Shown here in pieces: positions 41,268 to 61,218 of a stretch of 64,000 bases of DNA. The notes below the pieces were generated by a model. That model ran no database searches, was not told where the DNA came from, and saw nothing but the letters and a program-made list of their open reading frames with translations. Source of the stretch: an uncultured Rhodospirillales bacterium (GTDB lineage Bacteria; Pseudomonadota; Alphaproteobacteria; Rhodospirillales; UBA2165); assembly GCA_913055735.1 (NCBI GenBank), contig CAJXKD010000001.1, positions 1,520,281 through 1,584,280 of the forward strand. The letters are read 5' to 3'. Both the position numbers and the translations under genes were made by a program. Each line of letters starts with the position of its first letter. Within the stretch, counting starts at the first letter, position 1.

Positions 41268-41281
41268 TTCCTCGGTTCTTC

Positions 41282-42277: not shown

Positions 42278-42292
42278 TCTGCTTTCTTTGCT

Positions 42293-45055: not shown

Positions 45056-45088
45056 CGTTGCGGGGAGCGTTGGTTTTCCGTCCGGAAC

Positions 45089-47728: not shown

Positions 47729-47762
47729 ACTGGGATGCGTTATCGCCCGTGACCGCGTCTGA

Positions 47763-49397
47763 TTATAGGCCGGATGCGCTTCGGTCTTTTTCGATCAGGA
47801 CGTCGCCAACGATAAGCGCGTCGAGGCCGCACCCAAAAAATGTCATCAACGCATCCCGAGGCGTTTCGACGATCGGCTGGCCATTTAGATTGAAGCTTGT
47901 ATTCAGAATCACGGGTGTGCCGGTCAGTTTTCCGTAGGATTCGATAAGTCGATGATAGGTCTCGTTTTGCGCAGGTTTAACGGTTTGCAAGCGTGATGTG
48001 CCGTCGAAGTGGACGACGGCGCGAATTTGATCCGCAGTCGCCGGTAGAGCGTCGACGGCAATAGACATGCTCGGGAATTCAAGGCCTTTTGTGTCGAAGA
48101 ATCGGTCTGCGGATTCAAACAATGCCGATGGTGCGAAAGGACGAAATTCCTCCCGGTACTTGATGCGTGCATTGACTTTGTCTCGCATGTTGGCGTCGCC
48201 CGCCGTTGCGAGGATGGACCGGTTGCCCAATGCGCGCGCTCCCGCTTCCGATCTTCCTTGGTGCCAGCCAATGATTTTACCGTCCGCTAAAAGCTCGGCG
48301 CCGGTTTGGGCTGGATCACCAAGCGTTTTGTAAGCGACGCCATTGGATTGGAGTTCGTCAAGAATATCGTCATTCGAGTACGCCGAGCCAAGATACGGTG
48401 TCGTCATGGGGGCGGGCGTGTCGCCGCTCCGTGCGGCACCGAGATACGCGCACCCCGCGCCCAGTCCGCGGTCCGCTGCGACCGGAGAGACGTAAACGTT
48501 TTCAAACATTCCAGAAAAAAGTATCAGACGGTTTGCGACGCAATTCAGCGCCGCTCCACCAGCAAAACAAAAATTTGGTATTTCAGGAAATCGCTCGTGC
48601 AGGCTTTTTACCAGCTCAAACAGGCATGATTCAAAATGCGCCTGTGTGCTTCTCGCAAGATTACGATGAAAATCGGTAATTTCTTCGCCAGGCTTTCTGC
48701 TCGGTTGTCCGAAGAATTCCGCCAGCTTTTCCGAATAGAGGGGTTCAAACGGTGACCGGACGACCGGTTCGTTGCGCATGAACGAGTTTTCGAACGTCCA
48801 TCCCTGTCCGTTCAATTTGAGAACTGGATTGAGATCGAAAGTATTCTCGCCGTAGGTCGCCAGGCCCATAAGTTTGTATTCATCAAGATCGGCGAAGCCC
48901 AGGTAACGCGTCATCAGCGTATAAAACATTCCGAGCGAGTTCCGGGCCGGGATGTCATCAAGAATTTGAAAGCCGTTCTCCCTTGAGGCGATTGCCGTCA
49001 TGCCGGAGGAGCCGTCTCCGGTTGCATCAAGCGACAGGCAAATTGCTTTGTCGAACGGCGAACCATAGAAAGCCGTCGCGAGATGGGCCTCCTGATGATG
49101 AACCCGTTCTATTTTCGGCCGGGTTCCGAATTGGTGGCGAAGATAATCAGCCCATCGTTCATCCGCCTCGTCGTATGTGACGCCGGTGGTGACAAAAACA
49201 TCGATGTCTTCGAAGCGTATGCCAGCTTCCGCGAGGCATGCTTTGATCGAATAATTGGGTAGGTAGCCATACGATGATTTGATGCGCAGGTACCGTTCTT
49301 CCTCGCATATCGCAATTAACTCGCCGTCTATGGCCAGCGCCGCGGAGGGGTCGTGCTGATTGATGGTCACGCCGCCGTGTAGACCCAAAACGATCAT
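47763..49397 (-). CDS. Carbamoyltransferase (NodU/CmcH family)
   Basis: 544 aa. The N-terminal MIVLGLHGGVTINQHDPSAALAIDGELIAICEEERYLRIK is the family hallmark. Confidence 0.85.
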   Translation of the reverse strand: MIVLGLHGGVTINQHDPSAALAIDGELIAICEEERYLRIKSSYGYLPNYSIKACLAEAGIRFEDIDVFVTTGVTYDEADERWADYLRHQFGTRPKIERVHHQEAHLATAFYGSPFDKAICLSLDATGDGSSGMTAIASRENGFQILDDIPARNSLGMFYTLMTRYLGFADLDEYKLMGLATYGENTFDLNPVLKLNGQGWTFENSFMRNEPVVRSPFEPLYSEKLAEFFGQPSRKPGEEITDFHRNLARSTQAHFESCLFELVKSLHERFPEIPNFCFAGGAALNCVANRLILFSGMFENVYVSPVAADRGLGAGCAYLGAARSGDTPAPMTTPYLGSAYSNDDILDELQSNGVAYKTLGDPAQTGAELLADGKIIGWHQGRSEAGARALGNRSILATAGDANMRDKVNARIKYREEFRPFAPSALFESADRFFDTKGLEFPSMSIAVDALPATADQIRAVVHFDGTSRLQTVKPAQNETYHRLIESYGKLTGTPVILNTSFNLNGQPIVETPRDALMTFFGCGLDALIVGDVLIEKDRSASGL

Positions 49398-49463
49398 TTT
49401 ATTCTGGCCTTATTTGGAGATTGGAAGGTTGAGAGTATTAGAGTTGCTCACCGGAAGGCGCAA

Positions 49464-51353
49464 CTATCTCGGAAAAAGATCGAACATGGCAGGCGCATCT
49501 TTCATTGGAAATTCGCCAGTCTTCAAATCTTCGATCCGGAGGCCGAAAGCCGCCAGCCGTTCGCGCCAATACTCGGATTCGGCCAGCCGGCGCTCAAAAC
49601 GGTCAATCAGCGTCTGATCGACCTCGCCGTTCTCCAAGCATTGCAGAAATCCTTGAAAATAGAGCGCGAAACCGTTTTCCGGCGAAATGACCTCTGAAAG
49701 AGTCTGTAGATGTGCTCGCAACTGCGCCAGTTTGACGGGGCGGCGTTCAAAGAATATCCGGTGAAAATTGAGGGTATAATTCATATAGAACCACATGTCG
49801 GTAATTTGGCCGGGGGTCAGAACATCATCCGGTGCGACGCCAGCGAAGGCCGAGGCGAACAGCGCTTCCGCAGGCCTTTGCCCTTTTTCGATCTCCGCCT
49901 GTTTGCCGTAGGAACCACCCATGAAGCGGACCTCGCCGGCTTTCTCGTCCTTGATAATCCCCTGCTCCACCATCGCATCGTGGATCGGCGTATTGGGCAG
50001 CGGCTGAAGAGGCGATATCCGATACCAGTCGCAGTCCATTTCCCGGGCGACATCGATGGTGTCCTGCACCATACGGAACGTCTCTCGGGGAAACCCGACC
50101 ATCAAGAGAACGGATGTGTGGATTTCCTCGTATTTCCGCAGGACACGAGCAGCTTCGAGGAAAACATCGACCGTCCCCGGTTTGCGGATTTCACGAAGGA
50201 TACCCGCATTTCCCGATTCCATTCCGATATTGACGGCAATGCATCCTGATTTAGCCATCGCGTCCACAACCTCGTCGGTGCAGGAGCTGGCGATCAGGCC
50301 GTTGGTGGCATCCCACGTAATGCCAAGATTGCGCCGCGCGATCTCGTCGAACATGGTAATCGCCCGGCGATGATCCTTCAGGAGGTCGTCGTCAAGCCAC
50401 ATGATATGATCGACGCCGTACGTGTTGACCAACTCTTCGATTTCATCAACGACCTGTATCGGATCGCGGCCTCGTACGCCCTTGCCGTTGAAGTTCCTAA
50501 CAGAACAAAATGTGCATTGCGCACGACATCCGCGATTCGAGAGAACCGTGGCAAACACGGCATCCTTGGGTTTAAAGCAATAGAAAGCGCCGATGGTGCC
50601 GTATCTGGAATATTCCGGGATTTCCATGAGATCGTAGGCCGGCGTAACGTCCACGTCGTCGGCTTCGGGGCGGCAATCTTTCATAAAATAATGACGTTCG
50701 GTCGAATTAGGTGCGCCGACACTCGGCAATACCGCAATCATCTGTCCCAGGCTTTCGGGCTCGGACGTGCCGTTAATGCAGCGGACGAAATTCGCGATTG
50801 CTCCTTCTGCCTCGCGCAAAAAGGCAAAACTCACGGCCGGAACATCGTCGAGCACGTGTTCTACATCGTTCGATACATGAACGCCTCCGATCGATACGAC
50901 ATAGTTCTTTTCCGCGATGTAATTGCAGACCCGTTTAAGAGATTCATGGGTCATGGTGAACATGCAGGTGACGCCTACGAAATCGGGCTCAAAGTCCTCC
51001 AGGACGTCGTCCAGCTTGGCCTGCCATGTGGCATCATGATCGAAATCCTGCTCGCGGGCGGCAGTATTCGCCGTGCGCAGGATTTCTTGGTTCAAGTTGC
51101 ACAGCTTTACGTCGACCCCGATCCTGCGGAGCTTTTCCGCCACGATGCCGAGGCCGTAAGGCGGGTAGTTGGTGTACCGGCCGCGTTTGGCCGTTTCGAA
51201 GCGGAACAACCCGCTGTCGGCGTCTGGCGGGGTAACTAGGAGTACCTTTTTGATTTGTCCGTTCGGGAACAAATCTGCCATTTGCTTTACCAGGGCATGC
51301 AAGTCGGACTTGTCCCCGATGGGCTGGTGGTTAAATTTCCTGATCTCATTCAT
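49464..51353 (-). CDS. B12-binding (class B) radical SAM enzyme
   Basis: 629 aa. An N-terminal Rossmann-like KKVLLVTPP...CMFT region is followed by SNRGCRAQCTFCSV (CxxxCxxC). Confidence 0.8.
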   Translation of the reverse strand: MNEIRKFNHQPIGDKSDLHALVKQMADLFPNGQIKKVLLVTPPDADSGLFRFETAKRGRYTNYPPYGLGIVAEKLRRIGVDVKLCNLNQEILRTANTAAREQDFDHDATWQAKLDDVLEDFEPDFVGVTCMFTMTHESLKRVCNYIAEKNYVVSIGGVHVSNDVEHVLDDVPAVSFAFLREAEGAIANFVRCINGTSEPESLGQMIAVLPSVGAPNSTERHYFMKDCRPEADDVDVTPAYDLMEIPEYSRYGTIGAFYCFKPKDAVFATVLSNRGCRAQCTFCSVRNFNGKGVRGRDPIQVVDEIEELVNTYGVDHIMWLDDDLLKDHRRAITMFDEIARRNLGITWDATNGLIASSCTDEVVDAMAKSGCIAVNIGMESGNAGILREIRKPGTVDVFLEAARVLRKYEEIHTSVLLMVGFPRETFRMVQDTIDVAREMDCDWYRISPLQPLPNTPIHDAMVEQGIIKDEKAGEVRFMGGSYGKQAEIEKGQRPAEALFASAFAGVAPDDVLTPGQITDMWFYMNYTLNFHRIFFERRPVKLAQLRAHLQTLSEVISPENGFALYFQGFLQCLENGEVDQTLIDRFERRLAESEYWRERLAAFGLRIEDLKTGEFPMKDAPAMFDLFPR

Positions 51354-51356: not shown

Positions 51357-52256
51357 TCAATTGACTCGCTGAAGTGCATCAAGAAGCCGGACTTTGGCAC
51401 GGACCGTTTTTTCCGGCGGTGTAAAGGTCAATCCAAGACTCCCGACAGCAAGCCCATTATCCAGCCAGGCATTCGTTGGCCGCGGTTCCGAATAGGTCAG
51501 CTCGCTGAACCGGATAGGTTCAAAGCTCATCTTATCGCCAAACGTGCTTTCCGCGATGATCCACTCACATAGTTGGGTTCTGGAGACGGCCGGGCAAGCC
51601 GCAAGATGGACGATCTTGGGGCGGTCCGGCAATTTTGCCAATTCTACCACGCCCCGCGCGGTGTCGTTAATGTCCGAAATATTGATCAAATTGTCATACG
51701 CCATTCGTGCGTTTCCGGAAAGTAGGTGGTGATAAGCATCCTTAACCGCGCAGTGGGAGTCAGGGTCGCCCGGCACGTTCCATCCTGTCCGCATAACGCA
51801 ATGATTACCTTCTAGAGAAAGCAGGAAGTCCTCCACCTCCACTTTCATGCGACCATAAAGGTTGAGGGGATTCGGAGAAACCTCTTCGGTATAGCCGCCG
51901 TCTCGTCCGTCGAAAACCTGGTCCGTGGACATGAAGAAAACGGATGCCCCCCGGTCTTGGCAGGTCTTTACGAGACGAACCGTTGCATCAACGTTCAGTT
52001 CTCTAGCCTTCGCCTGATTCTCGAAAATCCATCCAGGGGAACCGTAGGCCGCAAGGATCAAAACCGTGTCTTGGTTGCCGATATCCGGAATGCTGCATGT
52101 CAAATCGCCGCTTATCATCTCGAATTTTATCGCATCCGGGGTGGTGCGCCGATGGGCGGTTGCAACAACGGGTATTGCTGATTGGCGGGCGGTATTTACG
52201 ACCGACGTGCCGATAACACCCGAACCGCCAACGACGATGAGACGTCCTTGGTCCAT
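51357..52256 (-). CDS. RmlD-substrate-binding-type sugar-nucleotide reductase/epimerase (SDR)
   Basis: MDQGRLIVVGGSGVIGTSV from the ATG at 52256 (the track ORF uses a TTG at 52265 overlapping the upstream stop), plus YGRMK. Confidence 0.55.
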   Translation of the reverse strand: MDQGRLIVVGGSGVIGTSVVNTARQSAIPVVATAHRRTTPDAIKFEMISGDLTCSIPDIGNQDTVLILAAYGSPGWIFENQAKARELNVDATVRLVKTCQDRGASVFFMSTDQVFDGRDGGYTEEVSPNPLNLYGRMKVEVEDFLLSLEGNHCVMRTGWNVPGDPDSHCAVKDAYHHLLSGNARMAYDNLINISDINDTARGVVELAKLPDRPKIVHLAACPAVSRTQLCEWIIAESTFGDKMSFEPIRFSELTYSEPRPTNAWLDNGLAVGSLGLTFTPPEKTVRAKVRLLDALQRVN

Positions 52257-52261
52257 TCCGA

Positions 52262-52795
52262 TCAAAGGCGTTCCATCGAACGCAAGACGTTCGATAGGTA
52301 TTCCTGCTGGGATTTCTTATCGTCTTCTTCGGACGGTGCCCATTCCGCATAGATGGTTTCTTGACGGCGGAACGGGCCATTTGTCACTTCGTGGAAGATG
52401 ACGAACTCCGTTTCTGGAATAATCATGTGATATAGGGGCTTGGATAGCCGATAGAAAAGGTTCTTTCCCGTTCCGGCGGCGCCCAGATCGAGCGTTTGAA
52501 GTATTTGTCCGTTGTCGTCGAACAGGATCAAAAGCAGCTCGCCTTCAATCATATGAAAGGATTCGCTCTTGTTCATATGTTTGTGCGGCTGACAGTACAT
52601 TCCCTTTTTATGGACGATGACCATCTCATGAAGCGGATCGTCCGTTGTCTTATGGGCGTTTATTCTCACCCGGTTGCGCGCGTTCGTGCTCGCGAGTTTT
52701 TTTAGAGCCTCTATCTGGGCCGGCGAAATATAGGTGACCGGGTTTTCGGAGACGAAAACCTCTTCATTCAGACGTTTAAAGGCGTCGAGACTCAT
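52262..52795 (-). CDS. WbuC-like cupin-fold protein
   Basis: 177 aa. RINAHKTTDDPLHEMVIVHKKGMYCQPHKH is a His-rich cupin core, as in WbuC-family proteins of O-antigen loci. Confidence 0.55.
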   Translation of the reverse strand: MSLDAFKRLNEEVFVSENPVTYISPAQIEALKKLASTNARNRVRINAHKTTDDPLHEMVIVHKKGMYCQPHKHMNKSESFHMIEGELLLILFDDNGQILQTLDLGAAGTGKNLFYRLSKPLYHMIIPETEFVIFHEVTNGPFRRQETIYAEWAPSEEDDKKSQQEYLSNVLRSMERL

Positions 52796-52802: not shown

Positions 52803-54059
52803 TTACCGTACCAAATCGGGATGGCGCTTTAGGAACGATAGCGCGATTTGCGTTTCGCCATTCCAGGCGCGCCCTTCCAGGGCAATATTCCAGAAAGTGT
52901 CGATCATCTTACGTTCCTCGCCGTCGAGAACGCGCCGATCTTCCAAAATCTCTTCCATCTCGACGGCCAGATCGAGGATTTCCTCCGGCGTATTCTCAAT
53001 AAGCTCGATACCCGCGTCGGAGAACTGTTTCGTGAACACGAACTGCCCAGCCCCGGACCCAACTATCTCCGAGAATGTCATGAACCGTTTTTGCTCCTTG
53101 GACCAGTACCGTTTGGGAATCCACAAATCCGTGGCCCGTGCCTTGAAGACATTTAATGCTTGTAATGGCGCTACATTACAGTTCGCGACTGGCGTGTGAA
53201 ACAGCCGGGGGAGATCAAGTACGCCGGACGCAGTTGCCACGCAAAATTTTGAACGAAAAGCGAGATAAATATCGCGTTCTTCGGTTCGGTGACGACTAGG
53301 ATAATCGACAATTGCCGGATCGGCCGTCTCCAGACTTTCGGAAACATGGGCTCCCGCTCGAACGACACCCATCCCTTTGGACGCAAATCGCTGCGCCATG
53401 GGAAGCATGTTTTGGATGCTGGAATCCCGATAGTCGTGATAGGACCAATCTTTACTTGGGCTAATATGATCCAAATGCGCCGCATCGCGGTTGGCAAACA
53501 GAATGACCTGCTTTTCCGGCTCGATTCCTAGGCTTGTGAGCCATTTGTCGCCGCGTTCGATGGTTTCCTTGTCGAGAACAATTGGTGGCGGGGCCTCGAG
53601 AGTAACACCCTCCCGGTCCAAGGAACTTACGGCCAAAGAATGGCGCTCCCAGTTGGGCAGTTGTCGGCTGGCCGCGTCGACATACTCGCTCAGTTGAAAG
53701 AACCGCATTTTCTTGCGGACGAGGTGGTACAGACAATTATTGACCGGCTGCGTGGTTCGGAAAAAAACGTCGATGTATCCTGCGTGTTTTCCGGACGCCC
53801 GTTCACAAAGGTAGGTATGGCATGCTCCTGCGAAATGGCCGATACGGCCCGTATCAATCCGGCAAATCCTGATGGAGATCCACGGCCACGTGATCCGCAT
53901 CAGAACGGCGGCCGGAAATCCAATCAATCCGACGAGAATCGACGAAAGGAGCCGCCGGAGCGCCAGCCGCGGATTGGTCTGCGCGGTTCGAAGCTTGCGC
54001 ACGAACACGGCAGGTAAGTTGCGAAGAGCCACGGGTTCCTTGTTGACGGCTGCAGTCAT
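52803..54059 (-). CDS. Putative glycosyltransferase resembling the 'TIGR04372 family' type
   Basis: 418 aa from the ATG at 54059; the longer track ORF overlaps the transketolase gene. The blocks TGRIGHFAG, FANRDAAHL, HDYRDSSI and VDYPS...DIYL match my recollection of that family. This needs HMM confirmation. Confidence 0.4.
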   Translation of the reverse strand: MTAAVNKEPVALRNLPAVFVRKLRTAQTNPRLALRRLLSSILVGLIGFPAAVLMRITWPWISIRICRIDTGRIGHFAGACHTYLCERASGKHAGYIDVFFRTTQPVNNCLYHLVRKKMRFFQLSEYVDAASRQLPNWERHSLAVSSLDREGVTLEAPPPIVLDKETIERGDKWLTSLGIEPEKQVILFANRDAAHLDHISPSKDWSYHDYRDSSIQNMLPMAQRFASKGMGVVRAGAHVSESLETADPAIVDYPSRHRTEERDIYLAFRSKFCVATASGVLDLPRLFHTPVANCNVAPLQALNVFKARATDLWIPKRYWSKEQKRFMTFSEIVGSGAGQFVFTKQFSDAGIELIENTPEEILDLAVEMEEILEDRRVLDGEERKMIDTFWNIALEGRAWNGETQIALSFLKRHPDLVR

Positions 54060-54097: not shown

Positions 54098-55015
54098 CTA
54101 TGAATTGATGGACGTCAGAATGGCCGAGGGTGACAAGCCGTGTTCGGCGAGTAGTTCTTGATGGCTGCCGTAACAATGGATGAACTCATCCTTCAAGGAA
54201 TAGCAATCAAGGCGCGCAGACGTTCTGGTATCGAACGCGATCTCTTTTACACGTGAGCCAAGGCCACCGTGCGGAACGTGTTCTTCAATCACGACGACAT
54301 GCTTGTGCTCGGCCAGAACGCTCGCGATTCCGTCTCGATCCAAGGGCTTGATTGTATGACAGGAATAGAGCGAAACGGATTGCCCCTGTTTTTCTAACGT
54401 CTCGGAGATCTCGGCTGCCATCGCGACTGTAATCCCGTAGGACAAAATCGCGATATCCGATCCCTTTTTGAGGCAACGAATCTTTCCAATGGCAAATGGG
54501 TCGAGAGCGGCACTTGTCAAATCCGGTTCACCCGCTTTTCCCAGGCGCATATAGACAGGTCCGTGGCTTTGTGTCGCACACCATTCCGTCGCCGTCCACA
54601 TCTCGTTGGGATCGCAGGGTGCAAGAACGGTCATATTGGGGATAGCGCTAGCGACCGCCACATCTTCCATCGTGTGATGAGTTCCTCCCAGCGTTGAATA
54701 AATGACGCCTGCGCCCATACCGATCACGGTGACGGGTAGGTTTTGGTAGCAAAGGTCGTCTCTCACCATTTCGAACGGCCGGAATAGGGAGAAGGTCGCA
54801 ATCGTATAACAAAACGGCCGCATGCCATTTAGTGCCATGCCCGCGGCGATTCCGATCATGGCTTGTTCGGCGACGCCGCAGTTCACGAACCTCTCGGGAA
54901 AATCCTCGCGGAAATTGACCATGGAACCGGCCGGCGAAATATCCGCCACGATGGCGCAAATACGGTCGTCGGTCTTGGCAATTTCGTAAATTGCATCGGC
55001 AAACTTGTTCCTCAC
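54098..55015 (-). CDS. Transketolase, C-terminal (pyrimidine-binding + C-terminal domain) subunit
   Basis: 305 aa with a GTG start overlapping the upstream stop. Motif FVNCGVAEQAMIGIAAGMALNGMRPF. Confidence 0.85.
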   Translation of the reverse strand: MRNKFADAIYEIAKTDDRICAIVADISPAGSMVNFREDFPERFVNCGVAEQAMIGIAAGMALNGMRPFCYTIATFSLFRPFEMVRDDLCYQNLPVTVIGMGAGVIYSTLGGTHHTMEDVAVASAIPNMTVLAPCDPNEMWTATEWCATQSHGPVYMRLGKAGEPDLTSAALDPFAIGKIRCLKKGSDIAILSYGITVAMAAEISETLEKQGQSVSLYSCHTIKPLDRDGIASVLAEHKHVVVIEEHVPHGGLGSRVKEIAFDTRTSARLDCYSLKDEFIHCYGSHQELLAEHGLSPSAILTSINS

Positions 55016-55836
55016 GATGAAACCTCCGCGAGTTCGTCAATAGCTTGCCGGTATTCCTCCGGTGTAGGCGATCGATAATGCCATACCGGAACGTTTTCCA
55101 TGTAGGAGACCCCTCGTCCTTTGATCGTATTGCCGATAAGCATGAAGGGTTTGCCGCCTTTCCGTTCCGTAATCGCCTTGAACACCGCCTCGGCATCGTG
55201 ACCATTCACTTCAACCGCTTCCCACCCAAACGCTTCAACCTTTTCGCGGATCGGGTAAAAGGCGGGATGCGTCTCGGAAGTGCGGCCAAAGGACTGGAAA
55301 CCATTGTGGTCAAGGAGCGCAATCAGATTGTCGGTTTTCAGGTTGGCCGCCATCATCATGGCTTCCCAGGTCGACCCCTCCTGGAATTCGCCGTCGCTTA
55401 GTACTGCGAAAACCTTTCCTGTCTTGCGATGAATATACTTTTCCGCATAGGCCATTCCCGTTGCCAATGCCATCCCATGACCCAGCGATCCCGTCGACGC
55501 TTCTATGCCGGGAACGCCATAATCGGGATGGCAACCGAGCCGCCCCTCCGGCTTGCAGTAAAGTGCGATATCTTCCTCGGTGAGTATCCCGAGATCTTCG
55601 AGGATCACATATTGAACGAGGCAGCCGTGGCCCTTGGACATGATAAATCGATCTTTGTCTTCCGCTGCGCCATCTTGCCGCATAAGCGCGTGATAGACAC
55701 AATCGACCATTTCCATCGCCGAGAAGGCGGCCGCAGCATGCAACGCTGTAACCTTCTGGGATATATCAAGAATGCGCTTGCGATACATTTTGCACCGCTT
55801 CTGCGCAGCGTTTACGTCAAAACTATTCTGAAGCAA
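55012..55836 (-). CDS. Transketolase, N-terminal (ThDP pyrophosphate-binding) subunit
   Basis: 274 aa (TTG at 55836; an alternative ATG lies at 55788). Motifs SKGHGCLVQY, GSLGHGMALATGMA and VLSDGEFQEGSTWEA...LLDHNG. Confidence 0.85.
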   Translation of the reverse strand: MLQNSFDVNAAQKRCKMYRKRILDISQKVTALHAAAAFSAMEMVDCVYHALMRQDGAAEDKDRFIMSKGHGCLVQYVILEDLGILTEEDIALYCKPEGRLGCHPDYGVPGIEASTGSLGHGMALATGMAYAEKYIHRKTGKVFAVLSDGEFQEGSTWEAMMMAANLKTDNLIALLDHNGFQSFGRTSETHPAFYPIREKVEAFGWEAVEVNGHDAEAVFKAITERKGGKPFMLIGNTIKGRGVSYMENVPVWHYRSPTPEEYRQAIDELAEVSS

Positions 55837-55859: not shown

Positions 55860-56510
55860 TCAGTCAATTATCGTCCAGTACCAGTCACCGGTATAACCGG
55901 CTTCGTCAAATAGTTTTATCCATCCGTCCGGGTAATCGTGGAACATTGCCGTAAGCACCCAACTCTCGAAAATTTCCTTTTGCTCCGGCGTTCGGTAGCT
56001 GTCTACTTGAACGAATCCGCGCCCAGGACTTAGGCGCTCGAATTCGCGTAGCGCCTGCGCGCACCGGTCGCGAGGCAAGTTATGGATGGTATTGATTGAT
56101 AGAACTGCGTCGAATGTTCCATCGGGGAAGGGGAGTTCATCGGCGCTGCCCAGGTGCAGACGTCCCACCGTTTCCCGCTCGCAGTTCATCAAGGCGTATT
56201 TTGAAATATCGACGCCGTACGCATCGATTCCGATTGCCAATAAGTCTTTGACGAGGAAACCTTTGCCGCACCCGACATCCAATACCTTGGCACCTGGCTC
56301 GAGCCCAAAATGTTCGACGATATCGGTAGCTACAGGCTGCCAGCGGCCGTCATAATAGTACCCGCCATATCCGTATTCGCGTGGTCCGTCGAAATAGACC
56401 TCGCCATATTCCCTTGAAATACGCACATGTTCGTCGGATTTAGCCGTTTCGCGTGCTTTGACATTGCGTTTGCCCTTGGGCAATGAGCGCAGGAGATTAA
56501 CCTCAACCAT
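55860..56510 (-). CDS. Class I SAM-dependent methyltransferase
   Basis: 216 aa. Motif I AKVLDVGCGKGFL. Confidence 0.75.
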   Translation of the reverse strand: MVEVNLLRSLPKGKRNVKARETAKSDEHVRISREYGEVYFDGPREYGYGGYYYDGRWQPVATDIVEHFGLEPGAKVLDVGCGKGFLVKDLLAIGIDAYGVDISKYALMNCERETVGRLHLGSADELPFPDGTFDAVLSINTIHNLPRDRCAQALREFERLSPGRGFVQVDSYRTPEQKEIFESWVLTAMFHDYPDGWIKLFDEAGYTGDWYWTIID

Positions 56511-56516: not shown

Positions 56517-57398
56517 CTAACCTAGTGCCTCATTCTGAATTTTGGCTAAGCCCTCGGCCAACTCCAAATAGCGAAAATCGGGAAAGGCCTCTTGTGTTGC
56601 TTGATTATTGAATGCCCTAAAGCCGTTGTGGGGCATCGGTCCGGTGCGAGGTGTGCCTTTTACCGTCACTGAAGGTTCCGATAAATCCGCGATCATCTCG
56701 GCGATCTTCCTAAAGGATATGACGTGGCCCGTAACCGCATTCAGCACGCCTTGGCTTCTATGCCAGGCAATAAGCCTGATCAACTCTGCCACATCGTTAA
56801 CATGTACGTGGTCGCGACGTTCCTCGCCTTCGCCAAACAAAACAATATCCTCGCCTTGTTCCGCAAGTCGTCGGAATTTGTTGGGACCGTAACCATTGTG
56901 CGGATCTTCGGCTCCATAAATCAAAGTAGGGCGCAAGATCGCGAGCGGGCAGTCCACGGCGTCCTTTAGCATGACCTCGCGCGTAAGGTGCATAATGCCA
57001 TGTAAGGAACTTGGCTCGGCACAAGAAGACTCGTCCAAAAGTTCCATGCTGTCTCTATAGACAGCATCTGAGCTGACATACATCACGTGCGCTGGGGATG
57101 AGCGTTCAAGCGCGCCGGAGACCGCCTCCATCATCTTGATGTTGCTAACTAGCATTGACGTATTCTTGCAAGGTGCTTCGGCAGCGATGATCAACACGGT
57201 ATCATCTGGCTCAATAGACTCCGAAAGGCGATCGCCGGCCCCTTGCGCAAGAAGGTCGATTTCTTGGCGACCAAGCGCAAGGACCGGCGTTCCTTCGCCA
57301 TCGAACGCTGTTCGTGCAGCTTTTCCGACAAAGCCGGCCGCGCCCAGTATGACAACTCTCGTGGGTCGGCGAAGGGGCCTGTTTAAGTGCTCAAGCAT
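56517..57398 (-). CDS. NAD-dependent sugar epimerase/dehydratase/reductase (SDR)
   Basis: 293 aa. Motif RVVILGAAGFVGKAA. 8-nt overlap with the upstream gene. Confidence 0.65.
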   Translation of the reverse strand: MLEHLNRPLRRPTRVVILGAAGFVGKAARTAFDGEGTPVLALGRQEIDLLAQGAGDRLSESIEPDDTVLIIAAEAPCKNTSMLVSNIKMMEAVSGALERSSPAHVMYVSSDAVYRDSMELLDESSCAEPSSLHGIMHLTREVMLKDAVDCPLAILRPTLIYGAEDPHNGYGPNKFRRLAEQGEDIVLFGEGEERRDHVHVNDVAELIRLIAWHRSQGVLNAVTGHVISFRKIAEMIADLSEPSVTVKGTPRTGPMPHNGFRAFNNQATQEAFPDFRYLELAEGLAKIQNEALG

Positions 57399-58695
57399 GT
57401 TGTTTTCGTGCAGTCGCGTCGATTTTTGATGGTGGTTTGCCGAGCGTAAAATGATCCAGTCCGGCGTCGATTAATTTTCCGGACTGCCATATACCGTATG
57501 GATCTATGACTGTCCGACCCCGCATGCGTTGGGCCAAATCGTGGGGGTCGATTTCTCGGTAAGCTGGCCACGGCGTCATCACCGCAACGGCATCCGTATT
57601 TTCGCAAGCTTCCAAGGGGTCGTTCGTGACATCGCAGGAAATATCAGCTTCTTCTGCGGTCACGATGGGATCGTGCGCTTTGACGTTGCATTTCTCTAGA
57701 TTCTTTAACAGGCTCAAAGCGGGGGAGTTCTTTGTGCTGTGTGTGTTCTCTTTGTAGGCGAGGCCCAGAATGCCGACGTCGGGATTGCAGTTCTCGTTCA
57801 GAACCTCGCGCTTCAGCGTTTCCCAAACCCAATCGCGCCGTCGCTGGCTATTGACGAGCCAGGCCTCAATGAGACTGCCGTCGGTGTCGTGCCTTTTCGC
57901 TAAGGTAGCTACCGTCGCGAGGTCGCGCTCCAGATTGCCCCCGGCCAGTCCTAATCCCGGTTTGAGATAACTGAATTGCCCGATCCGGCGGTCGAGTTTC
58001 AAGGCCGGAACGATCTCTGACCAATCGGCTTCAATCTGTTCGCAAATTTCCGCCATCATGTTGGCGACGCTGACCGAAGCAACCAGGCACATATTGATCG
58101 AGATTTTCGCCAGTTCGGCACTCTCATAACGCATTGGTAAAATGGGGCATTCGAACGCCGATAGAAAAGCTTCTAACCTTGGATCGATCGGTTCGTGGGG
58201 ATTGCCGCAACCGACGATAATCCGTTCGGGTTTGAGTGCCCTAGTTATGGCTTGGCCGAATACCAGGGTCTCGACTTGATAGTATAAACGTGTAGGCGAA
58301 CAGCCGATGCCACGCGTGAAACCCGGCGGCACTTGGCAGAGAATGACCAGCAAAGCATCCTCACTGGCGTTGTCTTCGATCAAACGGAACATTCGTTCAA
58401 TCGTGCGTAAATCTCCTTTGCCGGAATCATCTGTCGGCACGTCTATCGACAGATACACGACGTCGCAGCGGCTTAAGTCGGTCGCATCGTTGGTAAAAGT
58501 GATGCGGGTGCGATTTGCCATTATGGTTTCGCTGAGGTCGGGTTCGCTGATGTGAAACCGGCCCGCCTTGAGGTCTTCGACGAGTTTCGGATCGTCATGA
58601 AAGCCGATCACGTCGAAGCCGCGTGCTGCAGCAGCGGCGGCAGAGCATAGACCCAAATGCGTCATTCCTGCGAAAGCAACAACGGGTCTGTTCAT
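57391..58695 (-). CDS. Nucleotide-sugar 6-dehydrogenase (UDP-glucose/GDP-mannose dehydrogenase family)
   Basis: MNRPVVAFAGMTHLGL from the ATG at 58695, which gives an ATGA overlap with the upstream stop, plus GLAYKENTHSTKNSPA. Confidence 0.8.
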   Translation of the reverse strand: MNRPVVAFAGMTHLGLCSAAAAAARGFDVIGFHDDPKLVEDLKAGRFHISEPDLSETIMANRTRITFTNDATDLSRCDVVYLSIDVPTDDSGKGDLRTIERMFRLIEDNASEDALLVILCQVPPGFTRGIGCSPTRLYYQVETLVFGQAITRALKPERIIVGCGNPHEPIDPRLEAFLSAFECPILPMRYESAELAKISINMCLVASVSVANMMAEICEQIEADWSEIVPALKLDRRIGQFSYLKPGLGLAGGNLERDLATVATLAKRHDTDGSLIEAWLVNSQRRRDWVWETLKREVLNENCNPDVGILGLAYKENTHSTKNSPALSLLKNLEKCNVKAHDPIVTAEEADISCDVTNDPLEACENTDAVAVMTPWPAYREIDPHDLAQRMRGRTVIDPYGIWQSGKLIDAGLDHFTLGKPPSKIDATARKQHA

Positions 58696-59657
58696 TGACA
58701 ACCCTTTTTCTCAGTCGTGCCGGTTAGTCCGGTTTGTCTTGCCAATGCGTTCAGCTTCCGACTGAGCCACAAGTCGTTGTCAAGTGTCGTTCCCGTCCCC
58801 TTTCTGCAAAGCTCAACGAAATGTACATATTCGGTCTCCCAAGTGGGATCCGTTTGTACGAGGCATACGGATTCTTCGGGCGGACGTCCGCTCGGAAGAA
58901 TTCTCGTCCGTCGTGTGAAAGTGCTCGGTCCCCATTTGCACAGACTGTCAATATGCGCGCTGCCATTCTCTGCGTAAATGTCGCAGGTGAAGTGATTGCG
59001 CCAACTGAGCATCGACATCTCGAGTTGGATTGCGGGATAACCTTCACCGGTAACGACGATATGATCGAATGCCCGGTTTTCGTGTCGATGGGCGCCTTGG
59101 ATACGGAAATCGACATTGAAACCGTCGCCGAACCAAAATCGCAGTGTATCCAGCAGGTGACTGCCAAGATCCGTAAGGACGCCGGCGCCTGTGTCGCGCC
59201 AGGCACTTTCACGTACCAAGCGGGCGGTACCATTCCCATAGAACATTCGCAGCGAGTAGATCTTTCCCAAGTCGCCGCTCGCAATGAGATCGCGCATTCT
59301 CACGAAATGAGGCTCAAACCTGTGATTGTACGCCGTGTAGCAAACGACATTGTTACGTTGGGCAAGCCTCGATAAGTCGCTAATTTCTTGCTCGTCGGAA
59401 CTAATGATCGGCTTTTCGACAAGCACATGCTTCCCGTTGCCAATAAGAAAGGAGAGCATGGCCAGTTTTTCGCCATCCGGCACACACAGCAATGCCGCGT
59501 CGTAGTCCGTCGATGGCACGTCGTAGAGGCTTTTGTAGGTGGCGCTATCAATTGCCGGGTCTACGGTCGCGACGATGTCGCTGCCGGCGACGCTCATCCT
59601 TTTCATCCCCTGCACACCCAATCCCACGATGACGATTCGTAACGATTTGGAATTCAT
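58692..59657 (-). CDS. Gfo/Idh/MocA family sugar oxidoreductase
   Basis: 321 aa. Motifs LRIVIVGLGVQG and HVLVEKP. Confidence 0.65.
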   Translation of the reverse strand: MNSKSLRIVIVGLGVQGMKRMSVAGSDIVATVDPAIDSATYKSLYDVPSTDYDAALLCVPDGEKLAMLSFLIGNGKHVLVEKPIISSDEQEISDLSRLAQRNNVVCYTAYNHRFEPHFVRMRDLIASGDLGKIYSLRMFYGNGTARLVRESAWRDTGAGVLTDLGSHLLDTLRFWFGDGFNVDFRIQGAHRHENRAFDHIVVTGEGYPAIQLEMSMLSWRNHFTCDIYAENGSAHIDSLCKWGPSTFTRRTRILPSGRPPEESVCLVQTDPTWETEYVHFVELCRKGTGTTLDNDLWLSRKLNALARQTGLTGTTEKKGCQ

Positions 59658-59664: not shown

Positions 59665-61218
59665 TTAGGCTCCGTAACCCGCCGTTTTTTCGATCTGATT
59701 GATACGACTCAGCACGTCTGCGGGTTTAACCGGAATATTGCCGTCATATTCGCATTCGCACGCGGCTGCGAACGACCCCAATATTGCCGCGATAACCGCG
59801 TTCTTGGTCGCCAACATGGATAGCGTGGCGTAGGCTAAAAGTGCGTCGCCTGCCCCAACCGCATCGACGACGGTTCGCGCGAAACTATCTATCGAAAAAT
59901 ACGTGACACCGTCTTCTTCGCTCGACGGAAAGGTCGCGAATACGCCGCGGTCCCCCAGTTTTAGGATGAGCAATCGGCATCCTGTCTCTCCCATTAGTGA
60001 ACCGGCAAGGCTGCCGACCGTCGAGTCCTGATCTGCGAGCGCAAACCGCGCTTCACGTTCGTTCGGTGTAATCAGATCGAAATCCTTGAACTCAGTGATA
60101 TTGCCCCATCTGCTCGCGACCTGACTATCGGCGACCTTATAGACGTCTGCCGGAATTGCGTCGGTTAAGACGGGTACGGTAAGCTGATTGAAAATTCCAT
60201 GGCGGAAATCGCTGAATACCACCGCGTCCGATTTTGTATTTTTCAAAGTCTCGCTCAGTTCCTCCAAAATCGTATCCGAGATGGACCGATTGTCGAGCGT
60301 ATCTACTTTGAGCAGCCGATATCCGCTAGCGATTATCGCGTTCTTGTTTGTTGTCGGCCGAGTTTGATCAATGATCGCTTTGCAGTCTATCCCCGCTTCC
60401 GTCAGGCCTTTTACGACGAAGTCTGCGTAGCGGTCCTTACCGAGTACAGTCGAGAACACGACCTCCGCACCTGCGGCGCGCATATGCTGGCAGACAATTC
60501 CGGCGCCGCCAATATAGTCGTCCTGCCCTAGGTATCGAACGCTAAACGTGGGTGTTTTGGTCTGGCCACCGATTAGAGACGTACGAGTGTAGCTGTCTAC
60601 GATGGTGTCGCCGAGAACATGGACCTTGAATCCCTTCATCTGATCGACGGCCTTTCTGAGGTCGTCAAAAGAAAGGCCATTTGAATGCATTAGGGACAAG
60701 AGCTTCTCGATTTGAAGAGCCGGCGGTGCAAGGTCGATCAGCTTTGAAGAGGAGTATACGACGTCCCCTGGCGTGAAAATCATCTCGCCGCCGTATCCCT
60801 CGACTAAATCCGCCTCTTCTTGCGTGGCAGGTGGAAGTCCGCCCCCCATATATTCGAAGCCTTTTGCGAAATAGTCCGGCTGCAAATAGTTTATGTTTTC
60901 TAGGGGTTTGGCATTGTGATCGATGATCACGTAGTCGACCATTTCGAACGCAGCAATGTTCAAGGCACGCAATCGTTCCGGCACATGTGGCCGATAGGTC
61001 CCTTTCTTAATATGCTTGTCGGCCGTGATGCTGGCAATCAGGATATCGGCTTTCGTCTTGGCGTAGGCTAAGTGGCGCACATGGCCGGGGTGCACGACGT
61101 CGAATACGCCATGACACATGATGACCTTTTTTTCACGCGGAAAGCCGCCAATGACTTTTTTCAGATCCTCACGATCGCGGAGTTTGAAGCTGTATTTTTC
61201 GAAGAATTCCGTGGTCAC
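59665..61218 (-). CDS. Bifunctional sugar-phosphate nucleotidyltransferase + PfkB sugar kinase (HldE/RfaE-like with inverted domain order)
   Basis: 517 aa with GTG start. The N-terminal CHGVFDVVHPGHVRHL...ITADKHIKKG..RP resembles RfaE domain II. The C-terminal VHVLGDTIVDSY...GGAGIV...DAVGAGDALLA resembles the PfkB/RfaE domain I kinase. First gene of the long operon. Confidence 0.7.
   Translation of the reverse strand: MTTEFFEKYSFKLRDREDLKKVIGGFPREKKVIMCHGVFDVVHPGHVRHLAYAKTKADILIASITADKHIKKGTYRPHVPERLRALNIAAFEMVDYVIIDHNAKPLENINYLQPDYFAKGFEYMGGGLPPATQEEADLVEGYGGEMIFTPGDVVYSSSKLIDLAPPALQIEKLLSLMHSNGLSFDDLRKAVDQMKGFKVHVLGDTIVDSYTRTSLIGGQTKTPTFSVRYLGQDDYIGGAGIVCQHMRAAGAEVVFSTVLGKDRYADFVVKGLTEAGIDCKAIIDQTRPTTNKNAIIASGYRLLKVDTLDNRSISDTILEELSETLKNTKSDAVVFSDFRHGIFNQLTVPVLTDAIPADVYKVADSQVASRWGNITEFKDFDLITPNEREARFALADQDSTVGSLAGSLMGETGCRLLILKLGDRGVFATFPSSEEDGVTYFSIDSFARTVVDAVGAGDALLAYATLSMLATKNAVIAAILGSFAAACECEYDGNIPVKPADVLSRINQIEKTAGYGA

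What the first reader, a model, noticed from the sequence alone, without database searches (positions are those of the whole stretch)
54098..55836. Split transketolase pair inside a nucleotide-sugar operon
Seen: two overlapping genes (GTGA junction) encode the ThDP-binding N-terminal half and the pyrimidine-binding/C-terminal half of a transketolase. The N-terminal half carries GSLGHGMALATGMA and VLSDGEFQEGSTWEA. The C-terminal half carries FVNCGVAEQAMIGIAAGMALNGMRPF. They are flanked by a putative glycosyltransferase and by a methyltransferase, an epimerase, a dehydrogenase and an oxidoreductase.

Established: ThDP enzymes install two-carbon branches or extend chains in unusual sugars. Examples are the yersiniose-type YerE and PDH-E1-like pairs in antibiotic deoxysugar pathways.

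Inference: this pair probably transfers a glycolaldehyde-type C2 unit to a keto-sugar nucleotide, giving a branched or higher-carbon sugar. It is unlikely to serve central pentose-phosphate metabolism.
Basis: partly seen in the sequence, partly recalled or inferred. Interest (0 to 1): 0.6.

Follow-up and report, generated by a model that had tools for sequence, protein, structure and literature searches.

The report
Sugar-tailoring split transketolase-like enzyme
Two overlapping genes encode a two-piece, vitamin-B1-dependent enzyme that looks like transketolase but has lost the residues that grip normal sugar-phosphate substrates; it sits in a conserved surface-sugar operon and most likely adds a two-carbon piece to an activated sugar, a step not yet described for bacterial surface glycans.

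Summary
Minus-strand ORFs 55836..55012 (TK-N, 274 aa) and 55015..54098 (TK-C, 305 aa) overlap by GTGA and carry the quoted motifs. The pair is not a housekeeping transketolase. Cofactor and catalytic residues are intact, but the acceptor-recognition residues are replaced (E. coli numbering: His461 to Gly, Asp469 to Leu, Arg520 to Lys). 109 of 119 family representatives share the loss of His461 and Asp469, forming a clade that excludes canonical TKs. Rif15, a two-subunit TK shown in vitro to move C2 from ketose phosphates onto a ketone, shares the signatures. The pair ends a conserved, tightly packed cassette found across several bacterial phyla: domain-swapped HldE-like kinase/nucleotidyltransferase, Gfo oxidoreductase, Cys-less NDP-sugar dehydrogenase, SDR, methyltransferase, TK-N/TK-C. 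Paralogous pairs follow NDP-sugar 4,6-dehydratases. In one subgroup the order is RfbF, RfbG, SDR, TK, RfbH, with the TK where YerE sits in yersiniose synthesis. Best reading (about 0.5): C2 transfer onto a carbonyl of a nucleotide sugar, giving a branched or chain-extended sugar. There is no biochemical proof, and the acceptor in this window is undefined. I rate it a new variant of a known kind.

The parts
55012..55836 (-). TK-N: ThDP/diphosphate-binding (PP) subunit, 274 aa, TTG start
   Evidence: Pfam Transketolase_N E=2.6e-35. Best PDB hit 6YAK, E=3e-48. His33/His70/His103/Asp148/Asn178/His253 correspond to E. coli TktA His26/66/100, Asp155, Asn185, His261, invariant in 27 orthologues. Clade signatures: L-H-A-A-A in place of G-H-P-G, GSLGHG in place of GxLGQG, SDG in place of GDG, WHY in place of (W/S)HG.
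54098..55015 (-). TK-C: pyrimidine-binding plus C-terminal subunit, 305 aa, GTG start
   Evidence: Pfam Transket_pyr E=1.1e-34 and Transketolase_C E=4.5e-23. Best PDB hit 6YAJ, E=8e-49. Kept: Arg2 (Ec Arg358), Glu50 (Ec Glu411), His113 (Ec His473). Replaced: Gly101 (Ec His461), Thr108 (Ec Glu468), Leu109 (Ec Asp469), Lys160 (Ec Arg520).
55012..55015 (-). GTGA stop/start overlap coupling TK-N and TK-C translation
   Evidence: Sequence read directly. The (A/G)TGA overlap, with a GGAG-like site upstream, is conserved in nearly all of 18 related loci examined, including distant subgroups.
55860..56510 (-). Class I SAM methyltransferase, 216 aa; the most conserved partner of the TK pair
   Evidence: Pfam Methyltransf_11/25. 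59-81% identical in cassette orthologues and directly upstream of TK-N. The MT-TKN-TKC triad also occurs in the Actinoplanes wps-2 EPS cluster.
56517..57398 (-). SDR epimerase/reductase, 293 aa
   Evidence: Pfam Epimerase E=8e-24. Weak NCBIfam hits to heptose 6-epimerase, GDP-fucose synthase and RmlD.
57391..58701 (-). NDP-sugar dehydrogenase-family protein lacking the catalytic Cys
   Evidence: All three UDPG_MGDP_dh domains; TIGR03026 217 bits above the 190 cut-off. GGNLERD where E. coli Ugd has GGYC253LPKD, in 21 of 21 orthologues.
58692..59657 (-). Gfo/Idh/MocA oxidoreductase, 321 aa
   Evidence: Pfam GFO_IDH_MocA N and C domains. Best NCBIfam hit is UDP-GlcNAc 3-dehydrogenase, below cut-off.
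59665..61218 (-). Fusion of cytidylyltransferase-like and PfkB kinase domains (HldE-like with swapped domain order); first gene of the operon
   Evidence: Pfam CTP_transf_like plus PfkB. NCBIfam rfaE_dom_I E=9e-37 and rfaE_dom_II E=5e-24, both below equivalog cut-offs. A fusion of this architecture accompanies TK pairs in three subgroups.
52803..54059 (-). TIGR04372-family glycosyltransferase (418 aa from the ATG; the ORF extends to 54176)
   Evidence: NCBIfam TIGR04372 156.7 bits above the 45 cut-off. Gene call in L001. The same GT family recurs after TK modules in other subgroups: L047, L081, L088.
52262..52795 (-). WbuC-family cupin
   Evidence: NCBIfam TIGR04366 130.9 bits above the 42 cut-off. 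Also found near the TK in L026.
51357..52265 (-). RmlD-like reductase
   Evidence: Pfam RmlD_sub_bind E=2.5e-28. 4-nt overlap with WbuC.
49464..51353 (-). B12-binding radical SAM enzyme; last tightly packed gene of the run
   Evidence: Pfam B12-binding plus Radical_SAM in the L001 gene table. Gaps from KinNT to here are -10 to +38 nt. The same class lies near the TK in L012, L026 and L047.

Best explanation
The two translationally coupled genes encode the two subunits of a ThDP-dependent enzyme with the transketolase fold. It belongs to a very large non-canonical (Rif15-like) clade dedicated to nucleotide-sugar tailoring rather than to the pentose-phosphate pathway. Shown: the fold, the intact cofactor and catalytic machinery, the loss of the canonical acceptor-recognition residues, and the conserved operon context. 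Inferred: like any TK, it cleaves a 2-ketose donor, probably a ketose phosphate such as F6P, Xu5P or S7P held by Arg2 and Lys160 of TK-C, to give dihydroxyethyl-ThDP. It then adds this C2 glycolaldehyde unit to a carbonyl carbon on the pathway's NDP-sugar. That sugar is a heptose-type sugar activated by the HldE-like fusion. The carbonyl would be a ketone made by the Gfo oxidoreductase, or a terminal aldehyde made by the Cys-less NDP-sugar dehydrogenase, which cannot go on to the acid. The product would be a sugar carrying a hydroxyacetyl or dihydroxyethyl branch, or a chain two carbons longer. Neighbouring SDRs would reduce the new ketone, the 216-aa methyltransferase would methylate the product, and the TIGR04372 glycosyltransferase would transfer it.
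For: Fold and cofactor machinery. The residues equivalent to Ec His26/66/100/261, Asp155 and Asn185 are invariant in 27 orthologues; Glu411 and His473 equivalents are kept. Non-canonical substrate site: His461 to Gly, Glu468 to Thr, Asp469 to Leu, Arg520 to Lys. 109 of 119 family representatives lack both His461 and Asp469, and the NJ clade of 108 leaves excludes 6YAJ, human TKT and the six canonical representatives. Rif15a/b are overlapping genes encoding a TK that transfers C2 from F6P, Xu5P, S7P, Ru5P or DHA onto a ketone in vitro. It shows GSLGHG, MR..ADIS, and Leu at the Asp469 position with no His461. Context: a cassette of KinNT, GFO, NDPDH, EPI, MT, TKN, TKC is conserved in Alpha-, Beta-, Gamma- and Deltaproteobacteria, Nitrospirales and Bdellovibrionota, with gaps of -10 to +38 nt in the window. 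Variant loci keep the TK together with 4,6-dehydratase-type SDRs. In Tardiphaga and a planctomycete the order is dehydratase-like SDR, TK, Zn-ADH. In metagenomic loci the order is RfbF, RfbG, SDR, TK, RfbH, with RfbF, RfbG and RfbH scoring above NCBIfam cut-offs; that is the pathway making YerE's acceptor. The neighbouring dehydrogenase lacks its Cys in 21 of 21 orthologues. Split TKs have been proposed to hydroxyacetylate keto sugars in miharamycin and amipurimycin biosynthesis.
Against: There is no biochemical evidence. No TK has yet been shown in vitro to act on a sugar nucleotide (PMC12247030). The window lacks the cassette's 4,6-dehydratase-like SDR (best match 33% identity), so the acceptor carbonyl here is hypothetical. 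The retained Arg2 and Lys160 could equally bind a phosphorylated acceptor. Most full cassettes also carry a true transaldolase plus GmhA-like and GmhB-like genes, which would also fit a role at the sugar-phosphate or precursor level. The Rif15 comparison rests on a machine-read DNA sequence with frame breaks. Neighbourhood labelling used BLAST probes, and many neighbours stayed unlabelled.
Confidence: 0.5

Rival explanations
1. The enzyme works before nucleotide activation. It builds an unusual ketose phosphate (for example an octulose or nonulose phosphate) from sugar phosphates. That product is then isomerised (SIS), phosphorylated at C1 and nucleotidylated by the HldE-like fusion, and dephosphorylated by the HAD phosphatase, much as LmbR/N/P/K/O do for the lincosamide octose.
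For: An HldE-like fusion accompanies the TK in this cassette, in variant loci and in the Zn-ADH subgroup. Full cassettes carry SIS, HAD and a transaldolase, the same enzyme classes as the Lmb octose route. The Arg358 equivalent and a basic residue at the Arg520 position are kept.
Against: In the largest sampled subgroup the TK sits in RfbF/RfbG/RfbH hexose pathways with no kinase or isomerase. It is placed after dehydratases and next to reductases or aminotransferases. The Asp that reads the acceptor's 2-OH is lost. The window keeps the TK but has no SIS, HAD or TAL.
Confidence: 0.2
2. It is an ordinary transketolase copy recruited to boost precursor supply. Together with the cassette's transaldolase it would make sedoheptulose-7-P from fructose-6-P for heptose synthesis.
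For: TK plus TAL plus GmhA-like, GmhB-like and HldE-like genes form a self-contained F6P to NDP-heptose route. The best solved relative is a genuine split TK. Rif15-type enzymes still cleave pentose-phosphate-pathway ketoses.
Against: The His461 and Asp469 equivalents are replaced in the whole clade. The TK is retained where TAL, GmhA and GmhB are absent, as in this window and in L012 and L026. Paralogues occur in CDP-hexose pathways that need no S7P. MT and TK are the most conserved cassette genes, which is unexpected for a redundant supply enzyme.
Confidence: 0.1
3. The ThDP-bound C2 unit ends up as something other than a C-C branch. It could become a glycolyl ester or amide on the sugar through a Rif15-like rearrangement or oxidation, or the enzyme could run as a lyase that removes a C2 unit from a ketose-type side chain.
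For: Rif15 yields an ester by rearrangement after C-C bond formation. DegT-type aminotransferases often flank family members, so amino groups are available.
Against: No lipoyl, ACP or oxidase partner is present in the cassette. Reductases directly downstream (Zn-ADH, SDR) fit reduction of a new ketone better.
Confidence: 0.08

Closest known systems
Rif15a/Rif15b, two-subunit transketolase of rifamycin biosynthesis (PMC6002545)
   Same: Two overlapping genes encode the two subunits, and the enzyme depends on ThDP and Mg. It shares the clade signatures GSLGHG, MR..ADIS at the start of the C-subunit, Leu at the Asp469 position and no His461. It was shown to take C2 from ketose phosphates and add it to a ketone on a bulky, unphosphorylated acceptor.
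   Different: About 37% identity over the aligned part of the N-subunit. The acceptor is a naphthoquinone and the product rearranges to an ester. It lies in an actinomycete polyketide cluster, not a glycan operon.
Split-chain transketolase of Carboxydothermus hydrogenoformans (PDB 6YAK/6YAJ)
   Same: Best solved relative (E about 1e-48 for each half). It has the same two-gene architecture, the same domain boundaries and a similar size.
   Different: It has the canonical loop T-H-A-G...G-E-D-G-A-S-H-Q, plus GSLGQG and GDG, and falls outside the window's clade.
YerE/YerF of yersiniose A biosynthesis (ThDP-dependent branching of CDP-3,6-dideoxy-4-keto-D-glucose; PMC12247030)
   Same: Proposed job: a ThDP enzyme adds a C2 unit to an NDP-keto sugar of a surface glycan, followed by a reductase. 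Paralogous TK pairs occupy the YerE position next to RfbF, RfbG and RfbH.
   Different: It belongs to an unrelated ThDP superfamily (decarboxylase/AHAS-like, single chain, pyruvate donor giving an acetyl branch). Here the fold is transketolase, and the donor is presumably a ketose giving a hydroxyacetyl unit.
Split-gene TKs proposed for miharamycin and amipurimycin, plus 13 predicted Streptomyces split TKs (PMC12247030, section 2.3)
   Same: Split TKs proposed to transfer a hydroxyacetyl unit onto a keto sugar made by a preceding oxidoreductase.
   Different: They come from actinomycete nucleoside-antibiotic clusters and are unproven in vitro. The present family is in surface-glycan operons of Gram-negative and other phyla.
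Lincosamide octose tailoring set LmbR/N/K/O and LmbL/LmbZ/LmbM (PMC12945683)
   Same: The cassette neighbours belong to the same enzyme classes: transaldolase, SIS isomerase, HAD phosphatase, kinase/nucleotidyltransferase, UDP-Glc-DH-like protein, Gfo-family oxidoreductase and SDR epimerase.
   Different: The lmb cluster has no transketolase or 216-aa methyltransferase listed.

Membership tests
Canonical transketolase (EC 2.2.1.1) | PP, Pyr and C-terminal domains of the TK fold | tested here: met
   PF00456, PF02779 and PF02780, all far above gathering scores.
Canonical transketolase (EC 2.2.1.1) | ThDP/metal motif and catalytic residues (Ec His26, His66, His100, Asp155, Asn185, His261, Glu411, His473) | tested here: met
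   All present: TK-N H33, H70, H103, D148, N178, H253; TK-C E50, H113. The motif reads SDG rather than GDG.
Canonical transketolase (EC 2.2.1.1) | Sugar-phosphate recognition residues Ec His461 and Asp469 (with Arg358 and Arg520) | tested here: not met
   Gly101 and Leu109 replace His461 and Asp469, and Lys160 replaces Arg520; only Arg358 (Arg2) is kept. The pattern holds clade-wide.
Canonical transketolase (EC 2.2.1.1) | Reaches NCBIfam equivalog cut-off for transketolase | tested here: inconclusive
   NF004559 scores 211.8 and 182.3 bits against a cut-off of 488, but each query is only half of the modelled protein.
Canonical transketolase (EC 2.2.1.1) | Xu5P + R5P to S7P + G3P activity; sole or housekeeping TK of the genome | not testable with these tools
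   No assay is possible.
Split-chain TK of the 6YAK/6YAJ type | Two separately encoded subunits split between the PP and Pyr domains | tested here: met
   GTGA overlap; conserved across orthologues.
Split-chain TK of the 6YAK/6YAJ type | Canonical substrate loop TH.G...GEDG..HQ | tested here: not met
   The window reads GMGAGVIYSTLGGTHH. In the NJ tree 6YAJ lies outside the window's 108-leaf clade.
Rif15-like two-subunit TK (C2 transfer to a non-sugar-phosphate carbonyl) | Overlapping subunit genes and shared non-canonical signatures (GSLGHG; Leu at the Asp469 position; no His461) | tested here: met
   tblastn of the window proteins against rif15 DNA taken from the paper's supplement. Caveat: the sequence was machine-read and contains frame breaks.
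Rif15-like two-subunit TK (C2 transfer to a non-sugar-phosphate carbonyl) | Ketose-phosphate donor and ketone or aldehyde acceptor on a bulky substrate | not testable with these tools
   Requires an enzyme assay.
YerE-type sugar-branching ThDP enzymes (decarboxylase superfamily) | AHAS-like TPP_enzyme_N/M/C architecture | tested here: not met
   Only a 20-bit TPP_enzyme_C hit, below the gathering score; the TK domains dominate. The resemblance is functional, not a matter of homology.
YerE-type sugar-branching ThDP enzymes (decarboxylase superfamily) | Encoded beside the enzymes that make an NDP-4-keto-deoxy sugar | tested here: inconclusive
   Met for paralogous subgroups (RfbF-RfbG-SDR-TK-RfbH; dehydratase-like SDR then TK then Zn-ADH) and for most cassette orthologues (SDR46). 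In this window the 4,6-dehydratase-like partner is absent.
[quoted passage not shown] | Single chain of about 620 aa, DXP_synthase_N domain, DRAG..GADG..THQ loop, equivalog score | tested here: not met
   The N half scores 28 bits on DXP_synthase_N against 122 on Transketolase_N. TIGR00204 scores 195 against a cut-off of 466. The loop differs.
UDP-glucose/GDP-mannose 6-dehydrogenase (neighbour gene 57391-58701) | Catalytic cysteine forming the thiohemiacetal and thioester for the second oxidation | tested here: not met
   Asn replaces E. coli Ugd Cys253 in the window and in 21 of 21 orthologues.

The most novel reading that the evidence does not exclude
A widespread, so far unrecognised C-C bond-forming step in bacterial surface-glycan biosynthesis. 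A Rif15-like split transketolase would add a glycolaldehyde unit to nucleotide-sugar carbonyls, acting as a non-homologous counterpart of YerE. In this cassette it would turn an NDP-heptose into a C9 or C-branched, O-methylated sugar. In the full cassette the transaldolase could recycle the donor's by-product: F6P gives the C2 unit plus E4P, and E4P plus F6P gives S7P, which is the precursor of the very heptose being modified.
Probability: 0.35. Interest if true: 0.75.

Novelty: new variant of a known kind. Interest (0 to 1): 0.62.

Why it matters
Sugar-branching ThDP enzymes in lipopolysaccharide are currently known only from the YerE (decarboxylase) superfamily. Transketolase-type branching has only been proposed, never demonstrated, for a few Streptomyces antibiotics (PMC12247030). 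This window belongs to a very large transketolase-like clade: 109 of 119 family representatives lack both canonical residues. The clade is embedded in nucleotide-sugar operons from Proteobacteria, Planctomycetes, Nitrospirales, Bdellovibrionota, SAR11 and actinomycetes. If the inference holds, three things follow. Databases mislabel the family members sampled here as 'transketolase'. An unknown class of hydroxyacetyl-branched or two-carbon-extended sugars exists on many bacterial surfaces. And a new set of biocatalysts for functionalised tertiary alcohols or higher sugars becomes available. The loss of His461 and Asp469 gives a simple sequence rule for separating these enzymes from true transketolases in metabolic reconstructions.

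Tried and rejected
- Exact look-up of the 274-aa TK-N found no record, probably because gene callers chose another start.
- Canonical housekeeping TK was rejected on active-site residues and phylogeny.
- DXS-like and PDH-E1-like readings were rejected on domain scores and the loop sequence.
- A frameshifted full-length tkt was rejected because the overlap is conserved.
- Literature searches for this cassette found only a domain-level mention in an Actinoplanes EPS cluster.
- The primary lincosamide paper could not be read, so the LmbL/LmbZ comparison stays at the level of enzyme class.
- PDB searches with the Gfo protein, the dehydrogenase and the methyltransferase gave only generic relatives.
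- Two representatives of distant subgroups sat on contigs under 2 kb and gave no context.
- A link to bradyrhizose was looked for and not found.
- The promoter and terminator scan gave counts no higher than in shuffled sequence.
- No structure prediction was run, because no tool offered residue-level superposition or docking.
Full report
**Observation.** The region holds two minus-strand ORFs: 55836..55012 (274 aa, TTG start) and 55015..54098 (305 aa, GTG start). Plus-strand bases 55012-55015 are tcac, which is GTGA on the coding strand, so the stop of the first gene overlaps the start of the second. Pfam assigns Transketolase_N (E=2.6e-35) to the first ORF, and Transket_pyr (1.1e-34) plus Transketolase_C (4.5e-23) to the second. 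The 16 residues upstream of Met17 are conserved in 27 orthologues, so the long ORF is the real one. The (A/G)TGA overlap with an upstream GGAG-like site is conserved in nearly all related loci examined, including distant subgroups. The split is therefore ancestral and translationally coupled, not a frameshift.

**Which kind of transketolase.** The closest solved structures are the two chains of the Carboxydothermus hydrogenoformans split TK (6YAK/6YAJ, E about 1e-48), followed by human TKT and DXS. I aligned the pair with E. coli TktA and DXS, 6YAK/6YAJ and human TKT. The alignment reproduces E. coli numbering exactly.

- Retained: His26, His66, His100, Asp155, Asn185 and His261 (TK-N H33, H70, H103, D148, N178, H253; invariant in 27 orthologues), plus Arg358, Glu411 and His473 (TK-C R2, E50, H113).
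- Replaced: His461 to Gly101, Glu468 to Thr108, Asp469 to Leu109, Arg520 to Lys160.
- Clade-specific N-half signatures: GSLGHG (Gln118 to His), SDG in place of GDG, L-H-A-A in place of G-H-P-G, and WHY in place of (W/S)HG.

From established knowledge of yeast and E. coli TK (my own knowledge, not a tool result), His461 helps bind the substrate phosphate, and Asp469 reads the 2-hydroxyl of the acceptor (the 4-hydroxyl of the donor). Losing both is hard to reconcile with normal Xu5P/R5P/S7P chemistry.

**This is a clade property.** A whole-library HMMER search returned 16,949 cluster representatives. Of the 119 full-length sequences among the best 150, 109 lack both His461 and Asp469 and only 6 have both. 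Meanwhile Glu411 (119 of 119), His473 (118), Arg358 (109) and a Lys or Arg at position 520 (97) are kept. In a neighbour-joining tree the window protein lies in a 108-leaf clade. That clade excludes 6YAJ, human TKT and the six canonical representatives, with E. coli TktA as the outgroup.

**A characterised member.** Rif15a/b of rifamycin biosynthesis is a two-subunit TK encoded by overlapping genes. In vitro it transfers a C2 unit from F6P, Xu5P, Ru5P, S7P or DHA onto the C4 ketone of rifamycin S. I took the rif15 DNA from the paper's supplementary table (machine-read, with some indels) and aligned the window proteins to it by tblastn.

- Rif15a carries SSGSLGHG and GDGEFDEGS.
- Rif15b begins MRT...TADIS.
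- After one frame correction, the Rif15b loop reads SVGASYDDP-VLGPTHQA. That is Leu at the Asp469 position and no His461.

So a biochemically proven 'C2 from ketose phosphate onto a ketone of a bulky acceptor' enzyme shares the signatures. This also explains why basic phosphate-binding residues can persist for the donor while acceptor recognition has changed.

**Genomic context of the orthologues.** TK-C has very close relatives (73-80% identity) in unrelated taxa. The gene tables of L001-L004, 26 loci from reference genomes and a tblastn co-occurrence matrix define a cassette. Its core is:

- KinNT (cytidylyltransferase-like plus PfkB fusion)
- Gfo/Idh/MocA oxidoreductase
- NDP-sugar dehydrogenase
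- SDR
- 216-aa methyltransferase
- TK-N and TK-C

The core is usually preceded by a GmhA-like SIS isomerase, a GmhB-like HAD phosphatase, a true transaldolase (TIGR02134, 335 bits above the 282 cut-off) and a 4,6-dehydratase-like SDR. The cassette occurs in Alpha-, Beta-, Gamma- and Deltaproteobacteria, Nitrospirales, Bdellovibrionota and Legionellaceae. MT and TK are its most conserved genes. In the window the genes from KinNT to the B12-radical-SAM gene are spaced by -10 to +38 nt, and promoter and terminator matches are no more frequent than in shuffled sequence. That fits a single operon. The window lacks the SIS, HAD, TAL and dehydratase-like genes and has no full-length tkt.

**Two neighbours are themselves unusual.** KinNT matches both halves of HldE (rfaE_dom_I E=9e-37, rfaE_dom_II E=5e-24), below equivalog cut-offs and in reversed domain order. 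This points to a heptose-type sugar 1-phosphate being activated. The 'UDP-glucose dehydrogenase' has Asn where E. coli Ugd has the catalytic Cys253, in 21 of 21 orthologues. It therefore cannot perform the thioester-dependent second oxidation to a uronic acid. It either stops at a carbonyl or, like the LmbL/LmbZ pair of the lincosamide pathway (mechanism from my own knowledge), takes part in a redox-neutral dehydration.

**Context of paralogous subgroups.**

- Variant loci L012 (Rhodospirillales) and L026 (Pelagibacteraceae) keep the TK (54-66% identity). They have a KinNT-like fusion, a ~220-aa MT and GDP-mannose-dehydratase-type SDRs, but no Gfo protein, dehydrogenase or epimerase.
- A subgroup about 38% identical, in Tardiphaga robiniae and a planctomycete, shows this order: KinNT, (SIS), dTDP-glucose-4,6-dehydratase-like SDR, TK-N/TK-C, Zn-ADH, then a 220-aa MT.
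- A third subgroup was sampled from 80 metagenomic loci. It typically reads NTP-transferase, 4,6-dehydratase, SDR, TK-N/TK-C, DegT-type enzyme. NCBIfam names these neighbours above curated cut-offs: RfbF (368 vs 300), RfbG (433 and 485 vs 278) and RfbH (667 vs 423).

RfbF, RfbG and RfbH form the CDP-3,6-dideoxy-4-ketohexose route, whose product is YerE's acceptor in yersiniose synthesis. In these loci the split TK sits where YerE would. Hexose pathways of this type contain no sugar-phosphate-level tailoring, which argues that the family acts on NDP-keto sugars.

**Most likely mechanism (confidence about 0.5).**

- Shown: a TK-fold ThDP enzyme with intact donor-side machinery, altered acceptor recognition and a dedicated glycan-operon context.
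- Inferred: it forms dihydroxyethyl-ThDP from a ketose (phosphate) donor. It adds the C2 unit to a carbonyl on the operon's NDP-sugar, either a ketone from the Gfo enzyme or an aldehyde from the Cys-less dehydrogenase. The product is a hydroxyacetyl-branched or two-carbon-longer sugar. That sugar is then reduced (SDR, RmlD-like), methylated (MT) and transferred (the TIGR04372 GT, which recurs beside TK modules in other subgroups).
- Speculative corollary for the full cassette: using F6P as donor releases E4P, which the transaldolase could convert with F6P to S7P, the heptose precursor.

**Rivals.**

1. Action at the sugar-phosphate level before activation (about 0.2). The KinNT, SIS, HAD and TAL association favours it. 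The CDP-hexose contexts and the loss of Asp469 count against it.
2. Plain precursor supply (about 0.1). The active site, and retention of the TK where TAL, GmhA and GmhB are absent, both contradict it.
3. A non-C-C outcome such as glycolylation, or lyase action (about 0.08).

**Comparison with the literature.** A 2025 review of ThDP enzymes states that LPS sugar branching is known for YerE-like enzymes. It adds that TK-type branching is only proposed for miharamycin and amipurimycin and for 13 predicted Streptomyces split TKs, with none characterised in vitro. The only mention I found of this gene arrangement in a glycan cluster is a domain-level annotation of MT, TK-N, TK-C and DegT genes (AMIS_56700-56750) in the Actinoplanes missouriensis wps-2 EPS cluster. 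The finding is therefore a new variant of a known kind: a known fold and known chemistry (Rif15) in an undescribed, very widespread glycan context.

**Limits.** There is no biochemical evidence. The organism was not identified. The genome-wide tkt check could not be run. The Rif15 comparison uses machine-read sequence. The tree is neighbour-joining only. In the metagenomic loci many neighbours remained unlabelled.

Noticed in passing
window 57391-58701 (-): The UDP-glucose/GDP-mannose-dehydrogenase-family protein has Asn in place of the catalytic Cys (GGNLERD against E. coli Ugd GGYC253LPKD), and the Lys of the PKD motif is Arg. This holds in 21 of 21 cassette orthologues. It cannot make a uronic acid by the normal mechanism, and its actual reaction is unknown.
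   Followed up: yes
window 59665-61218 (-): An HldE-like bifunctional protein with reversed domain order (nucleotidyltransferase at the N-terminus, PfkB kinase at the C-terminus), below the HldE equivalog cut-offs. Fusions of this architecture accompany TK pairs in three different subgroups (L012, L026, L036, L037, L047, L081).
   Followed up: partly
L038, L052, L071 (metagenome loci): Here the order is RfbF, RfbG, SDR, TK-N, TK-C, RfbH (RfbF is seen in L052, RfbH in L071). A split TK-like pair is embedded in a CDP-3,6-dideoxyhexose pathway in the position YerE holds in yersiniose clusters. This predicts hydroxyacetyl-branched dideoxyhexoses.
   Followed up: partly
L002 945-1673; also L005, L007, L013, L021 and others: Most full cassettes include a genuine transaldolase (TIGR02134 above cut-off) together with GmhA-like and GmhB-like genes. 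Two C-C bond-forming enzymes in one nucleotide-sugar cassette recalls the LmbR-type octose route; this window lacks all three genes.
   Followed up: partly
window 52803-54059 (-); L047, L081, L088: A TIGR04372-family glycosyltransferase follows the TK module in this window and in unrelated TK subgroups. It is a candidate for the transferase of the TK-modified sugar.
   Followed up: partly
window 32183-43180 (-): By reading the translations only (no family models were run), this stretch looks like a pseudaminic/legionaminic-acid-type nonulosonic acid pathway. It has PseB-like, PseC-like, PseG-like and NeuB-like genes, a CMP-sugar synthetase and an acetyltransferase. Extra genes include a glutamate-1-semialdehyde-aminomutase-like protein, an aldo-keto reductase and an RmlD-like reductase.
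   Followed up: no
window 29132-32274 (-): By eye, an FkbH-like/HAD-type protein (623 aa) is followed by a fusion of a MaoC-like hydratase and a short-chain dehydrogenase (424 aa). Together they could supply an unusual acyl substituent for the neighbouring nonulosonic acid genes.
   Followed up: no
window 43181-51353 (-): Downstream of the TK operon lie a B12-binding radical SAM enzyme, a carbamoyltransferase, a 491-aa protein with no family hit, a weak sulfotransferase-like protein and an ABC transporter with a fused membrane domain (L001 gene table). These suggest methylated, carbamoylated and possibly sulfated glycan, exported by an ABC route.
   Followed up: no
window 7480-8724, 14891-15877, 17770-18900, 19710-20477 (-): The first 23 kb holds further sugar-tailoring genes: a TylC3-type C-methyltransferase (Methyltransf_13/14), a 2OG-Fe(II) oxygenase, a radical SAM/SPASM enzyme, a second CMP-type cytidylyltransferase, and several GT2 and GT4 glycosyltransferases. 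The whole 64-kb window appears to be one glycan island, almost entirely on the minus strand.
   Followed up: partly
window 1-12000 vs 12001-64000: GC content is 0.55-0.62 in the first 12 kb and 0.51-0.56 in the rest. This may indicate a mosaic origin for the island. No genome baseline was available for comparison.
   Followed up: no
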